DNA of 64,000 nucleotides, taken from positions 1 through 64,000 of IMG/VR virus record IMGVR_UViG_3300014204_000003, one strand, 5' to 3'. Both the position numbers and the translations under genes were made by a program. Positions 13,306 through 13,855 of the stretch are shown here, one piece after another (positions within the stretch are counted from its first letter, which is position 1; every line of letters starts with the position of its first letter). The DNA comes from a virus (lineage: Duplodnaviria > Heunggongvirae > Uroviricota > Caudoviricetes). The notes below the pieces were generated by a model. It did no database searches, had not been told where the DNA came from, and worked only from the letters and a program-made list of their open reading frames with translations.

Positions 13306-13539
13306 CTATCTTTCCTGTACGCTGAAATAAACCCAGTCTCCAGTGTTAGCGCAAAATATAACCTTGCCATCTTTGCGCAAATAAAGTTTACCGGACAGAT
13401 TGTCGATCATAACTTCATCCGCCACAAAGGAAACAGTTGAACCGATCCGCAGGCCTACTACGACAATATTCCTGTTGGCATCGATAGTTTGCTCTGTTTT
13501 ACTTGGGGTTATAGTACTCGACTTTAAGGTTTTCTTCAC
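13306..13539 (-). CDS. hypothetical protein
   Basis: 77-aa ORF. Confidence 0.35.
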   Translation of the reverse strand: MKKTLKSSTITPSKTEQTIDANRNIVVVGLRIGSTVSFVADEVMIDNLSGKLYLRKDGKVIFCANTGDWVYFSVQER

Positions 13540-13855
13540 GACATGACTCCTCTACCGTTTTATTAATATCTTGGAAGGACTCGGACTTTAACTCGATTTC
13601 TTGCCCAAGGCGCCGTGATACTTCCACCTTATGCCATTTCTGGAAGGGGACAGACCTTGCCATTCTTTCGAATGCGGCTTTCTTATTTTGAGCTTGAGAC
13701 CTGAATTCGCGTCCTTCTCCAAATGCTCCAGACGCTAGATGGGTAATGCGGACTCCATTTTGGTTGGAGTTTTGATGCTGGCCACCGGGACCACCTGTGC
13801 AAAAGGTGGCAATTTTAAAATCTTTTTTGGTAAGGCTAAATAGAAGACGTTTCAT
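13499..13855 (-). CDS. ArfB/ICT1-family peptidyl-tRNA hydrolase (RF-1 GGQ domain)
   Basis: TGGPGGQHQNSNQNGVRITH contains the universally conserved GGQ motif in its release-factor/ArfB context. The 118-aa size and the basic C-terminal tail match ArfB (YaeJ)-like ribosome-rescue factors. Confidence 0.65.
   Translation of the reverse strand: MKRLLFSLTKKDFKIATFCTGGPGGQHQNSNQNGVRITHLASGAFGEGREFRSQAQNKKAAFERMARSVPFQKWHKVEVSRRLGQEIELKSESFQDINKTVEESCREENLKVEYYNPK

What the first reader, a model, noticed from the sequence alone, without database searches (positions are those of the whole stretch)
13499..13855. Phage-encoded ArfB/ICT1-like GGQ peptidyl-tRNA hydrolase
TGGPGGQHQNSNQNGVRITH is the catalytic GGQ loop of release-factor-like proteins. 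The 118-aa size and basic tail fit stand-alone ribosome-rescue factors (ArfB/YaeJ). Such genes are uncommon in phages. Here it sits at the edge of a tRNA array and near a candidate UCA-anticodon element. This suggests the phage tunes termination or ribosome rescue, perhaps to cope with host tRNA-targeting defences or recoding.
Basis: partly seen in the sequence, partly recalled or inferred. Interest (0 to 1): 0.6.

Follow-up and report, generated by a model that had tools for sequence, protein, structure and literature searches.

The report
Phage tail-less GGQ release-factor domain protein
A phage gene beside a tRNA gene cluster encodes only the catalytic "GGQ" part of a bacterial release factor; it belongs to an already annotated but biochemically untested phage family and is not an ArfB/ICT1-type rescue factor.

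Summary
The ORF at 13499-13855 (-) is real, is under strong purifying selection (dN/dS about 0.1), and encodes a 118-aa RF-1 domain protein with an intact GGQ loop (Pfam PF00472, 56 bits, above the cut-off). The ArfB/ICT1 label fails. The ArfB model scores 21 bits against a cut-off of 100. The ArfB-specific 21-residue insertion is absent. The C-terminal 33 residues are acidic (net -4; ArfB tail +13). By sequence profile and by fold, the protein is closest to domain 3 of RF1/RF2 and PrfH.

It belongs to a known phage family (phrog_3122, annotated "RF-1 domain peptide chain release factor"). That family is found in 240 of 50,697 phage records, mostly mycobacteriophages. I found no functional study of it.

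The link to tRNA arrays is real. Of 80 viral loci, 35 have tRNAs within 6 kb, densest next to the gene and 91% co-oriented. This link was already noted in Mycobacterium. No UCA-anticodon tRNA and no sign of stop-codon recoding were found in the window.

In this lineage only, the gene sits in a conserved block downstream of a divergent Ro60 protein, its small partner protein and YrlA-like RNAs.

Most likely function: a codon-independent, ribosome-dependent peptidyl-tRNA hydrolase serving a phage translation-maintenance island. How it is recruited to the ribosome is unknown.

The parts
13499..13855 (-). Gene for the 118-aa stand-alone GGQ (RF-1 domain) protein
   Evidence: ORF. Pfam PF00472 56 bits. 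phrog_3122 E=1.9e-21. 83 homologues, almost all about 100-145 aa. dN/dS 0.08-0.13.
13601..13837 (-). RF-1 domain proper (residues 7-85). This covers the beta-sheet, the GGQ loop and two helices equivalent to RF1/RF2 domain 3, including the long helix.
   Evidence: Pfam match over residues 7-85. Alignment to T. maritima RF1 residues 194-272. AF2 model with pLDDT 83 and Foldseek top hits to ribosome-bound RF2/RF1.
13778..13786 (-). Codons GGT GGC CAG, encoding the catalytic Gly-Gly-Gln motif (residues 24-26)
   Evidence: Read from the sequence. G24 and G25 are invariant in alignment A1. Q26 is conserved except in three members that carry GGG.
13499..13600 (-). Family-specific acidic C-terminal region (residues 86-118), ending in the conserved NLKVEY-type motif. 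It stands where ArfB has its basic tail and RF1/RF2 have domain 4.
   Evidence: Net charge -4. L110 and E113 are conserved. pLDDT is lower here, 54-73.
13857..13871 (.). Palindrome GTAAACCCGGTTTAC, ending one base before the ATG of the GGQ gene. It is one of eight copies in the window.
   Evidence: 8 matches against 0.01 expected. The same 15-16 nt precede the GGQ gene in L004, L005, L006, L008 and L009. No Shine-Dalgarno motif lies upstream, unlike neighbouring genes.
13856..14169 (-). GC-rich, strongly folding 314-nt spacer between the 116-aa gene and the GGQ gene. Relatives lack it.
   Evidence: GC 0.60 against 0.47 for the window. MFE -134 kcal/mol, z = -2.9. In L004 and L007 the two genes are 65 and 11 nt apart, and no similarity to the spacer was found.
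13306..13539 (-). 77-aa ORF overlapping the 3' end of the GGQ gene by 41 nt. Its position is conserved, its sequence only weakly.
   Evidence: ORF. Genes of 77 aa are called at the same place in L004, L006 and L007. Identity is 29-32%. No family match.
14170..14520 (-). 116-aa helical protein that is the regular downstream partner of the Ro60-like gene
   Evidence: Found immediately downstream of the Ro60-like gene in 48 of 63 viral loci. No informative family hit.
14510..16027 (-). Divergent Ro60 (TROVE ring plus vWA domain) protein, 505 aa counted from the second Met
   Evidence: Sequence searches detect only the vWA domain. The AF2 model (pLDDT 80) matches full-length Ro60 structures over about 500 columns: 9kop, Thermus phage phiLo 9l5y, Xenopus 1yvp and D. 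radiodurans 2nvo. At least 937 homologues.
17627..17762 (-). YrlA-like (bacterial Y RNA) gene, 1.6 kb upstream of the Ro60-like gene
   Evidence: Rfam RF02553 with full model coverage, 40.5 bits, E=5e-7. This is below the gathering score of 69. The orthologous hit in L004 scores 42.7 bits.
16500..16671 (-). Second conserved tRNA-like non-coding RNA candidate: T arm, closed acceptor-like hairpin and D-arm-like hairpin inside a long closing stem
   Evidence: Conserved in L004 and L007. RNAalifold predicts 42 pairs, 12 with compensatory changes, from only three sequences. No Rfam match at E<1.
10298..13301 (-). Array of ten co-oriented tRNA genes (Glu, Asp, Tyr, Cys, Asn, Ser, Gln, Pro, Trp, His), interspersed with small ORFs and an HNH endonuclease gene
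   Evidence: ARAGORN. Nine of the ten are confirmed by Rfam. The ORF at 11240-11920 matches HNH only weakly (IscB HNH model, E=0.005); the clear HNH gene is at 17062-17670.
17804..17881 (-). tRNA-Phe(GAA) at the upstream end of the island
   Evidence: ARAGORN and Rfam, 67 bits. Its homologue in relative L004 carries anticodon UUA.

Best explanation
The gene encodes a minimal bacterial-type release-factor catalytic domain, equivalent to domain 3 of RF1/RF2, capped by a short acidic C-terminal segment. It has no codon-reading domains and no ArfB-type mRNA-channel tail. It is a member of a known, phage-borne family of stand-alone RF-1 domain proteins (phrog_3122).

The most likely activity is ribosome-dependent, codon-independent hydrolysis of peptidyl-tRNA. 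The GGQ loop would enter the peptidyl-transferase centre of a ribosome, or of a split 50S subunit, that holds a peptidyl-tRNA with a vacant A site. The nascent chain would be released and the ribosome and tRNA recycled.

The gene travels with phage tRNA arrays. In this lineage it also travels with a Ro60/Y-RNA module. It is therefore best read as one component of a phage 'translation-maintenance' island. Such an island would keep ribosomes and tRNAs available when decoding stalls during infection, for example after host tRNA depletion or cleavage.

Shown here: domain identity, fold, intact catalytic motif, purifying selection, family membership and genomic association. Inferred: catalytic activity, the substrate complex and the biological purpose. 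How a protein without a tail or decoding domains finds its ribosome is unknown. Candidates are the conserved basic helix F71-W74-H75-K76...R81-R82-L83-G84-Q85, or an unidentified partner.
For: Domain and motif:
- Pfam RF-1 scores 56 bits, above the cut-off.
- The motifs GGQ-H-x-N, VRITH, SG and RSQxxNK align with RF1 domain 3.

Fold: the AF2 model (pLDDT 83) matches ribosome-bound RF2/RF1 domain 3 best (E about 6e-6). It then matches mtRF-R (1.3e-4) and PrfH (1.5e-4).

Profile ranking against solved structures: RF1 68 bits, RF2 64, PrfH 59, C12orf65 39, ArfB 31-36, ICT1 17.

Family:
- phrog_3122, E=1.9e-21.
- 83 homologues, almost all about 100-145 aa.
- The best 150 of 12,087 hits among 1.84 billion representatives are all 82-216 aa, and most match the profile end to end.
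- 240 phage records are annotated 'RF-1 domain peptide chain release factor'.
- Only 6 loci were found in 185,579 species genomes, using narrow search patterns.

Selection: dN/dS 0.08-0.13.

tRNA association:
- 35 of 80 viral loci carry tRNAs within 6 kb.
- tRNA density falls from 0.63 per kb within 1 kb of the gene to 0.22 per kb at 5-6 kb.
- 324 of 356 tRNAs are on the same strand as the gene.
- The nearest tRNA is within 40 nt in 11 loci.
- The same association was reported for Mycobacterium tRNA arrays (PMC5966550).

Lineage-specific block: Ro60-like, 116-aa, GGQ and 77-aa genes keep this order in three relatives.
Against: - No biochemical data exist for any family member in the literature I could search.
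- Established knowledge of ArfB, not tested here: its GGQ domain needs the C-terminal tail to bind ribosomes. This casts doubt on whether a tail-less GGQ domain can work alone.
- Three family members have GGG instead of GGQ. Catalysis may therefore not be what is selected everywhere.
- The tRNA association is not universal. 45 of 80 loci have no tRNA within 6 kb, and in mycobacteriophage ScottMcG the gene lies among replication genes.
- The 80 loci include near-duplicates, and no matched background set was obtained.
Confidence: 0.6

Rival explanations
1. It is a true ArfB/ICT1-type rescue factor. A C-terminal tail would probe the empty mRNA channel of non-stop ribosomes and position the GGQ domain.
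For: Its size (118 aa) is similar to ArfB (140 aa). It is stand-alone and has a GGQ domain. ArfB appears among distant structural and profile hits.
Against: The ArfB equivalog model scores 21 bits against a cut-off of 100. The 21-residue ArfB insertion is absent. The tail is acidic, net -4 against +13 for ArfB, and this holds across most of the family. RF1, RF2 and PrfH rank far above ArfB and ICT1.
Confidence: 0.04
2. It is a ribosome-binding effector rather than a rescue enzyme. It would occupy the A site and peptidyl-transferase centre of host ribosomes to abort or block host translation (shut-off), with or without catalysis.
For: A codon-blind GGQ domain would act on any ribosome with an accessible A site. 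Three family members have lost the Gln (GGG) while keeping the rest of the domain. The gene lacks a Shine-Dalgarno motif and is directly preceded by a repeated palindrome, which suggests tight regulation.
Against: It would hit phage translation as well. The consistent co-orientation and embedding in tRNA arrays points to supporting translation rather than blocking it. GGQ is retained in nearly all of the 83 retrieved homologues; three carry GGG and one shows no motif.
Confidence: 0.12
3. It works like PrfH, as part of an RNA-damage response with the neighbouring Ro60/Y-RNA module. It would release peptides from ribosomes whose rRNA or tRNA has been cut by ribotoxins, while other factors degrade or repair the RNA.
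For: The best NCBIfam match is the PrfH GGQ domain (48 bits), and PrfH scores 59 bits in the profile search. The block Ro60-like, 116-aa, GGQ is conserved in three relatives, and a fourth, distant locus (L065) has both genes in another order. A YrlA-like RNA lies nearby. In Salmonella, rsr-yrlBA sits in the RtcBA repair operon, and in E. coli PrfH pairs with RtcB2 (PMC7790460 and PMC9304027, listed).
Against: The PrfH N-terminal recognition domain is absent, and the score is far below the PrfH cut-off of 166. No RtcB was found among the 24 window ORFs scanned against Pfam or PHROGs. The GGQ and Ro60-like genes are neighbours in only 4 of 80 and 4 of 63 loci. The link is therefore specific to this lineage, not to the family.
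Confidence: 0.1
4. It hydrolyses free (dropped-off) peptidyl-tRNA like Pth, recycling the phage's own tRNAs.
For: It is associated with tRNA arrays. Other phages carry Pth2 in tRNA arrays (PMC5966550; PMC7824862).
Against: The fold is the RF GGQ domain, not Pth or Pth2. Established knowledge of RF, ArfB and ICT1, not tested here: GGQ-domain catalysis depends on the ribosomal peptidyl-transferase centre.
Confidence: 0.06
5. It tunes termination in a phage that recodes stop codons, acting together with suppressor tRNAs.
For: Suppressor tRNAs lie near GGQ genes in 6 of 80 loci. One is the close relative L004/L008, where a UUA-anticodon tRNA replaces the window's tRNA-Phe.
Against: The window has no suppressor tRNA. 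The standard code already gives 79% coverage by ORFs of at least 100 codons, and reading through TGA, TAG or TAA each adds a similar 5-6%. The protein has no codon-reading domain.
Confidence: 0.04

Closest known systems
Phage stand-alone RF-1 domain proteins (PHROG phrog_3122; annotated 'RF-1 domain peptide chain release factor' in mycobacteriophages such as ScottMcG gp204 and in Tunturiibacter phages Tunturi_3 and Tunturi_4)
   Same: The architecture is the same from end to end and about 110-135 aa long. The GGQ loop, the FxxWHK...RRLGQ helix and the NLKVEY-type C-terminus are all present. Identity is 42-51%. The association with tRNA arrays was noted in Mycobacterium (PMC5966550).
   Different: This copy is at most about 51% identical to any isolate phage protein. 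It sits in a Ro60/YrlA block seen only in its close relatives. It has a 10-residue insertion in the acidic C-terminal region and a window-specific 314-nt structured spacer upstream.
Domain 3 of class I release factors RF1/RF2
   Same: This is the best sequence-profile and fold match. GGQ, VRITH and RSQxxNK and both helices align.
   Different: It lacks domains 1, 2 and 4, and therefore the PxT/SPF codon-reading elements and the switch loop. It cannot recognise stop codons.
PrfH (RF-H), the rescue factor for ribosomes with a damaged decoding centre, paired with RtcB2
   Same: The GGQ domain is close (best NCBIfam hit; 59 bits in the profile search). Both lie in RNA-damage or translation-repair gene neighbourhoods.
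   Different: It has no N-terminal recognition domain (PrfH is about 200 aa). No RtcB neighbour was found. The score is far below the family cut-off.
mtRF-R (C12orf65/MTRFR), the mitochondrial rescue factor acting on split large subunits with MTRES1
   Same: It is a small GGQ protein of the RF1/RF2 type without the ICT1/ArfB insertion. The profile match spans nearly the whole length (profile positions 6-108, E=6.7e-9). It ranks above ArfB and ICT1 in both the fold and profile searches. It offers a precedent for a GGQ protein that needs a partner and a split subunit.
   Different: The similarity is much weaker than to RF1/RF2. No MTRES1-like (S4-domain) partner was identified here. Whether it acts on 50S subunits is untested.
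ArfB (YaeJ) / ICT1
   Same: It is a stand-alone, codon-independent GGQ protein of similar size.
   Different: It has no ArfB/ICT1 insertion, no basic C-terminal tail, and only 21 bits against the ArfB model.

Membership tests
RF-1 domain superfamily (Pfam PF00472, bacterial-type GGQ peptidyl hydrolase domain) | Profile match above the curated cut-off | tested here: met
   56.1 bits against a cut-off of 35, E=4.3e-15, residues 7-85
RF-1 domain superfamily (Pfam PF00472, bacterial-type GGQ peptidyl hydrolase domain) | Intact Gly-Gly-Gln motif in the loop between strand 1 and the following helix | tested here: met
   G24-G25-Q26. The glycines are invariant in the family alignment.
RF-1 domain superfamily (Pfam PF00472, bacterial-type GGQ peptidyl hydrolase domain) | GGQ-domain fold | tested here: met
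   AF2 model with pLDDT 83. Foldseek probability 1.00 to ribosome-bound RF2/RF1 domain 3.
RF-1 domain superfamily (Pfam PF00472, bacterial-type GGQ peptidyl hydrolase domain) | Ribosome-dependent peptidyl-tRNA hydrolysis | not testable with these tools
   Needs a biochemical assay.
Phage stand-alone RF-1 domain proteins (phrog_3122) | Match to the family profile and end-to-end alignment with members of about 100-145 aa | tested here: met
   E=1.9e-21, residues 3-81. 83 homologues, almost all about 100-145 aa. The best 150 representatives are all short, and most match end to end.
ArfB (YaeJ) | Equivalog HMM NF006718 at or above its cut-off | tested here: not met
   21.2 bits against 100, and only over residues 49-69.
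ArfB (YaeJ) | ArfB/ICT1-specific insertion within the GGQ domain | tested here: not met
   BLASTP to verified E. coli ArfB needs a 21-residue gap opposite ArfB residues 41-61. Profile matches to ArfB are split into two stretches.
ArfB (YaeJ) | Basic C-terminal tail of about 40 residues that binds the empty mRNA channel | tested here: not met
   Residues 86-118 have net charge -4. The family mean is -2.7. The ArfB tail is +13.
ArfB (YaeJ) | Rescue of non-stop ribosomes, or complementation of ssrA arfA mutants | not testable with these tools
   Experiment required.
PrfH (TIGR03072) | Equivalog HMM at or above its cut-off, with the N-terminal recognition domain (about 100 aa) | tested here: not met
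   48.4 bits against 166.65. The match covers only profile positions 103-172, and the protein starts about 8 residues before the GGQ domain.
PrfH (TIGR03072) | Adjacent RtcB-type RNA ligase gene | tested here: inconclusive
   No RtcB was found among the 24 window ORFs scanned against Pfam or PHROGs. Not every ORF of the window was scanned.
Class I release factors RF1/RF2 | Full-length four-domain architecture with a PxT or SPF codon-recognition motif | tested here: not met
   prfA and prfB models score 41-47 bits against cut-offs of 370-423, and the matches cover only the GGQ domain. The protein is 118 aa.
mtRF-R / C12orf65 | Small GGQ protein without the ICT1 insertion that acts with an S4-domain partner (MTRES1) on split large subunits | tested here: inconclusive
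   Profile E=6.7e-9 over profile positions 6-108; Foldseek E=1.3e-4. No S4-like partner was recognised among the neighbours. Activity is not testable.
Ro60/TROVE (the neighbouring gene at 14510-16027, not the finding itself) | HEAT-repeat ring plus C-terminal vWA/MIDAS domain, with a Y RNA gene nearby | tested here: met
   Foldseek matches full-length Ro60 structures over about 500 columns, TM 0.5-0.6. A vWA Pfam hit and a DxSxS motif are present. A YrlA-like RNA lies 1.6 kb away, E=5e-7 but below the Rfam gathering score. The Pfam TROVE model itself gave no hit.

The most novel reading that the evidence does not exclude
The tail-less phage GGQ proteins would be a distinct, uncharacterised class of codon-independent peptide-release factor. 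Their ribosome recruitment would differ from every known rescue factor. They might act on split 50S-peptidyl-tRNA complexes, or bind through the conserved WHK...RRLGQ helix or a partner protein. Phages would deploy them within tRNA islands to clear ribosomes stalled by host tRNA-targeting defences. In this lineage they could also cooperate with a phage Ro60/Y-RNA particle.
Probability: 0.3. Interest if true: 0.6.

Novelty: new member of a known kind. Interest (0 to 1): 0.35.

Why it matters
If these minimal GGQ proteins are active, phages carry their own peptide-release or ribosome-rescue enzyme alongside their tRNA sets. That would extend the idea that tRNA arrays are counter-measures against host attacks on translation. 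It would also reveal a recruitment mode that needs neither stop-codon reading nor an ArfB tail.

For this window the practical value is corrective. The gene should be annotated as a stand-alone RF-1 (GGQ) domain protein of the phrog_3122 family, not as ArfB. Its neighbourhood should be recognised as a Ro60/Y-RNA plus tRNA island.

Tried and rejected
- ArfB/ICT1 membership: rejected.
- PrfH and full-length RF1/RF2 membership: rejected on architecture and score.
- Suppressor tRNA (UCA) in the window: none found by ARAGORN or Rfam, even at relaxed thresholds.
- Stop-codon recoding: no stop codon stands out in the read-through ORF coverage test.
- Ro60-like protein by sequence: there was no PDB or TROVE hit. 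It was resolved only by structure prediction and Foldseek.
- A general functional link between GGQ and Ro60: rejected as a family-wide feature, since the two are neighbours in only 4 of 80 and 4 of 63 loci. The 116-aa gene belongs to the Ro60 module, not to the GGQ gene (48 of 63 loci).
- The 314-nt spacer as a known RNA: no Rfam match and no copies elsewhere.
- A matched background for tRNA proximity, using the DnaB-like helicase: the scan returned only one locus. I used the distance gradient within the GGQ loci instead.
- afdb50 fold library: unavailable.
- Megablast of 10-18 kb against isolate phages: no match.
- Simple promoter and terminator scan of 13000-14600: nothing on the - strand.
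- Literature searches for a functional study of phage GGQ-only proteins: none found.
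Full report
**1. The observation**

The quoted peptide is residues 20-39. Gly-Gly-Gln is encoded by GGT GGC CAG at 13778-13786 (-).

Pfam's RF-1 domain (PF00472) matches residues 7-85 with E=4.3e-15 and 56.1 bits, above the gathering score of 35.

The gene is real and constrained. Against orthologues in two related metagenomic phage contigs, dN/dS is 0.125 and 0.08.

The window is a phage. It carries a large terminase subunit (6757-8649), a portal protein (2237-4117) and a DnaB-type helicase.

The gene lies at the upstream edge of an array of ten co-oriented tRNA genes (10298-13301). 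Another tRNA (Phe) lies at 17804-17881.

Two details of the observation fail:
- The C-terminus is not basic. Residues 86-118 have net charge -4, and the corresponding tails of the retrieved homologues are mostly acidic (mean -2.7). The last 40 residues of E. coli ArfB carry +13. I wrote the ArfB sequence from memory and then verified it as identical to PDB 4v95 chain AY.
- No tRNA or tRNA-like element with anticodon UCA was found. The array contains tRNA-Ser with anticodon UGA, which reads UCA codons.

**2. What the protein is**

Sequence models place the GGQ domain with RF1, RF2 and PrfH rather than ArfB.
- NCBIfam scores: PrfH 48 bits, RF1 47 and 41 bits (two models), RF2 45 bits, ArfB 21 bits. 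The ArfB match covers only residues 49-69 and its cut-off is 100.
- A profile built from 25 family members gives, against solved structures: RF1 68 bits, RF2 64, PrfH 59, C12orf65/mtRF-R 39, ArfB 31-36 (split into two stretches), ICT1 17.
- BLASTP against verified ArfB gives 23% identity. It needs a 21-residue gap exactly where ArfB and ICT1 carry their characteristic insertion.

An AlphaFold2 model (pLDDT 83; strands 13-18, 34-39 and 45-48; helices 54-66, 69-90 and 95-104) agrees with this ranking. It matches ribosome-bound RF2 and RF1 domain 3 best (E about 6e-6). It then matches mtRF-R (1.3e-4) and PrfH (1.5e-4), with ArfB (5.8e-3) and ICT1 (1.5e-2) well behind.

The alignment to T. maritima RF1 residues 194-272 shows the GGQ-H-x-N, VRITH, SG and RSQxxNK motifs in register. 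The query helix 69-90 corresponds to the long helix of domain 3.

After that helix, RF1/RF2 continue into domain 4 and ArfB continues into its basic tail. This protein instead has about 30 acidic residues ending in a conserved NLKVEY-type motif.

In short, it is an isolated RF domain 3 with a family-specific cap. It has no codon-reading domains, no ArfB insertion and no ArfB tail.

**3. The family**

- The protein matches PHROG phrog_3122, 'RF-1 domain peptide chain release factor', at E=1.9e-21.
- tblastn finds relatives in 240 of 50,697 phage records. Of these, 206 are Mycobacterium phages, where the gene is routinely annotated. The closest, at about 50% identity, are two Tunturiibacter (Acidobacteriota) phages.
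- In the 5.8-billion-protein collection, 83 homologues were retrieved, almost all about 100-145 aa.
- In the 1.84-billion representative library, 12,087 proteins score E<=1e-3. The best 150 are all 82-216 aa, and most match the profile end to end.
- BFVD holds further short RF-like proteins from Pseudomonas, Acinetobacter and Aeromonas phages.
- A pattern-limited scan of one genome from each of 185,579 prokaryotic species found six loci. Together with the 244 relatives found in viral contigs, this suggests a largely phage-borne family.
- Invariant or nearly invariant positions are D12, F13, G24, G25, R36, H39, G43, R52, N57, A61, F71, W74 and E113.
- Three members have GGG in place of GGQ.

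I found no paper that tests the function of any member. Morgado and Vicente (PMC5966550) had already noted an RF-1 domain gene as a core gene of one group of Mycobacterium tRNA arrays. They speculated about extra rescue factors.

**4. Genomic context**

Among 80 IMG/VR loci encoding a relative, 35 have at least one tRNA gene within 6 kb, and some have up to 38. Three further measures point to embedding in tRNA transcription units, not mere co-residence in one genome:
- tRNA density falls steadily from 0.63 per kb within 1 kb of the gene to 0.22 per kb at 5-6 kb.
- 324 of 356 tRNAs are on the same strand as the gene.
- In 11 loci the nearest tRNA is within 40 nt.

There are caveats. The loci include near-duplicates. 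I could not obtain a matched background set. In 45 loci, and in mycobacteriophage ScottMcG, the gene is not near tRNAs.

In the window and its three close relatives (GGQ protein 71-73% identical), the gene order is conserved: Ro60-like, 116-aa, GGQ, 77-aa, then tRNAs.

The 505-aa upstream protein shows only a vWA domain by sequence. Its AlphaFold2 model (pLDDT 80) matches full-length Ro60 structures over about 500 columns. These include the Ro60 of Thermus phage phiLo, Xenopus Ro60 and D. radiodurans Rsr.

A YrlA-like Y RNA lies 1.6 kb upstream, at 17627-17762 (-). It scores 40.5 bits with E=5e-7 and full model coverage, below Rfam's gathering score. An orthologous hit exists in the relative L004. 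This fits the criterion of Chen et al. 2014 for phage and bacterial YrlA genes near Ro60 (PMC4201824).

Reverse analysis of 63 Ro60-like loci gives three results:
- The 116-aa gene is the regular partner of Ro60 (48 of 63 loci).
- tRNAs are nearby in 52 of 63 loci.
- A GGQ gene is nearby in only 4 of 63 loci.

The GGQ gene, the Ro60 plus partner plus Y-RNA module and the tRNA arrays are therefore separate modules. They tend to gather in one phage 'RNA and translation island'. The adjacency of GGQ and Ro60 is specific to this lineage.

**5. How it most likely works**

Shown: the domain, the fold, an intact catalytic motif, purifying selection, and co-orientation with tRNA arrays.

Inferred from established knowledge of RF1/RF2, ArfB, ICT1, PrfH and mtRF-R: GGQ domains catalyse peptidyl-tRNA hydrolysis only inside the ribosomal peptidyl-transferase centre. 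Specificity comes from appended domains, tails or partners.

This protein has none of the known specificity elements. The best reading is therefore a codon-independent, ribosome-dependent peptidyl-tRNA hydrolase. It would act on ribosomes, or on split 50S subunits, with a vacant A site.

Recruitment is the open step. Candidates are the conserved, partly basic helix (F71, W74, H75, K76, R81, R82, L83, G84, Q85), the conserved C-terminal motif, or a partner protein. mtRF-R with MTRES1 on split large subunits is the nearest mechanistic precedent for a small RF1/RF2-type GGQ protein.

The biological purpose, clearing ribosomes stalled when tRNAs are depleted or cleaved during infection, is inference from context. 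It matches ideas in the jumbo-phage survey about Pth2 (PMC7824862).

From my own knowledge: the window's tRNA set includes the four GUN-anticodon tRNAs (Asp, Tyr, Asn, His) and also Glu and Gln. These are classic targets of anticodon nucleases. I did not test this point.

My confidence is about 0.9 that the protein is a member of the phage stand-alone RF-1 domain family and is not ArfB. It is about 0.5 for the proposed activity, and about 0.6 overall.

**6. Rivals**

- A true ArfB mechanism is essentially excluded by sequence.
- A translation-blocking or chain-aborting effector is possible. The protein is codon-blind, some members have GGG, and the start region looks tightly controlled. This fits poorly with embedding in tRNA arrays.
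- A PrfH-like role tied to Ro60 and RNA damage is attractive for this lineage. However, the protein lacks the PrfH recognition domain, no RtcB neighbour was found, and the Ro60 link is not family-wide.
- A Pth-like activity on free peptidyl-tRNA conflicts with what is known of GGQ domains.
- Termination tuning for recoding has no support in this window: there is no suppressor tRNA, and the read-through test shows no stop codon standing out. Suppressor tRNAs do occur near the gene in 6 of 80 loci, including a close relative.

**7. Novelty and verdict**

The gene is a new, divergent member (at most about 51% identity to any isolate phage protein) of an already annotated phage family. It is not categorically new, and the tRNA-array association has been published for Mycobacterium.

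What remains open is the biochemistry of the whole family: a GGQ domain with no known means of finding its ribosome. Interest is moderate (0.35).

The most novel reading not excluded is a new class of rescue or release factor with a new recruitment mode, used against tRNA-targeting defences. I give it a probability of about 0.3 and an interest of about 0.6 if true.

Noticed in passing
window 14510-16027 (-) and 14170-14520 (-): A divergent Ro60 (TROVE plus vWA) protein that sequence models miss; only the vWA domain is detected. Its predicted structure matches full-length Ro60 structures, including Thermus phage phiLo Ro60. It belongs to a large family (at least 937 homologues of about 497 aa, labelled 'hypothetical protein' wherever the listed entries carry a name). 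In 48 of 63 viral loci it is followed by a helical protein of about 100-116 aa, and in 52 of 63 it has tRNA genes within 6 kb.
   Followed up: yes
window 17627-17762 (-); L004 2036-2172 (+): A YrlA-like Y RNA lies 1.6 kb upstream of the Ro60-like gene: T arm, closed acceptor-like stem, D arm and a closing stem. It scores 40.5 bits, E=5e-7, below Rfam's gathering score of 69. A relative has an orthologous hit. The 5' part of the 202-aa ORF that carries the HNH domain (17062-17670) overlaps it, so that gene probably starts further downstream.
   Followed up: partly
window about 16500-16671 (-), plus about 16300-16400 (-) and about 16780-16850 (-): The roughly 1-kb ORF-poor stretch between the HNH gene and the Ro60-like gene holds further tRNA-like pieces, each a T-arm-like hairpin followed by a closed C-rich/G-rich acceptor-like hairpin. 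The element at 16500-16671 is conserved in L004 and L007. Its consensus fold has 12 compensatory pairs, from three sequences only. These may be additional Y-like RNAs that match no Rfam family.
   Followed up: partly
L004 1920-1994 (+), compared with window 17804-17881 (-): In a close relative (GGQ protein 73% identical), the tRNA at the position of the window's tRNA-Phe(GAA) has anticodon UUA, an ochre suppressor. It keeps an almost identical D arm but has a different anticodon stem. Amber (CUA) suppressor tRNAs lie within a few kb of GGQ genes in five other viral loci (L021, L024, L025, L031, L033). UCA, UUA and CUA suppressors occur in several Ro60-like loci.
   Followed up: partly
window 13856-14169 (-): A 314-nt GC-rich (0.60 against 0.47) spacer between the 116-aa gene and the GGQ gene folds strongly (-134 kcal/mol, z = -2.9). 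It includes a perfect 13-bp hairpin at 14004-14033. Relatives lack it: their two genes are 11-65 nt apart. It matches no Rfam family and has no copy elsewhere in the window or the fetched loci. It may be an inserted element or an RNA gene.
   Followed up: partly
window 13857, 21297, 25773, 33081, 44505, 46812, 51896, 58293 (15 nt each): The palindrome GTAAACCNGGTTTAC occurs eight times, against 0.01 expected. Most copies lie at or near gene boundaries. Two abut a start codon directly, that of the GGQ gene and that of the ORF starting at 51911. The copy before the GGQ gene is conserved in relatives. It may be an operator, a promoter element or an RNA hairpin; its function is unknown.
   Followed up: partly
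window 22628-23905 (-): This ORF is an adenylosuccinate synthetase homologue (Pfam E=2.7e-59). It matches the PHROG family annotated '2-aminooxy adenylosuccinate synthetase' (phrog_1211, E=1.4e-73), which is PurZ-like. The phage may therefore replace adenine with 2-aminoadenine in its DNA. The other Z-genome genes were not looked for.
   Followed up: no
proteins P0063, P0066, P0068 (homologues): Three family members carry GGG followed by GKD, instead of GGQ followed by xxN, while keeping the rest of the domain. This sub-branch may have lost or altered catalysis.
   Followed up: no
window 11240-11920 (-) and 17062-17670 (-): Two endonuclease-like genes lie inside the tRNA/Y-RNA island. The one at 17062-17670 is a clear HNH endonuclease (phrog_2118, E=1.8e-19). 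The one at 11240-11920 matches only weakly (IscB HNH model, E=0.005). HNH genes have been reported in mycobacteriophage tRNA arrays. The 305-aa ORF at 11240-12157 runs over three tRNA genes, so its true start must be internal.
   Followed up: partly
window 11930-12018 (-) and 55086-55163 (+): ARAGORN calls tRNA-Tyr and tRNA-Met here, but Rfam's tRNA model does not report either, at gathering or relaxed thresholds. They may be atypical tRNAs or false calls.
   Followed up: no
window 13306-13539 (-): A 77-aa ORF overlaps the end of the GGQ gene by 41 nt. It keeps its position and length in relatives but shares only 29-32% identity, against 71-73% for the GGQ protein. It matches no family. It may be a fast-evolving partner or an unrelated small gene.
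   Followed up: partly
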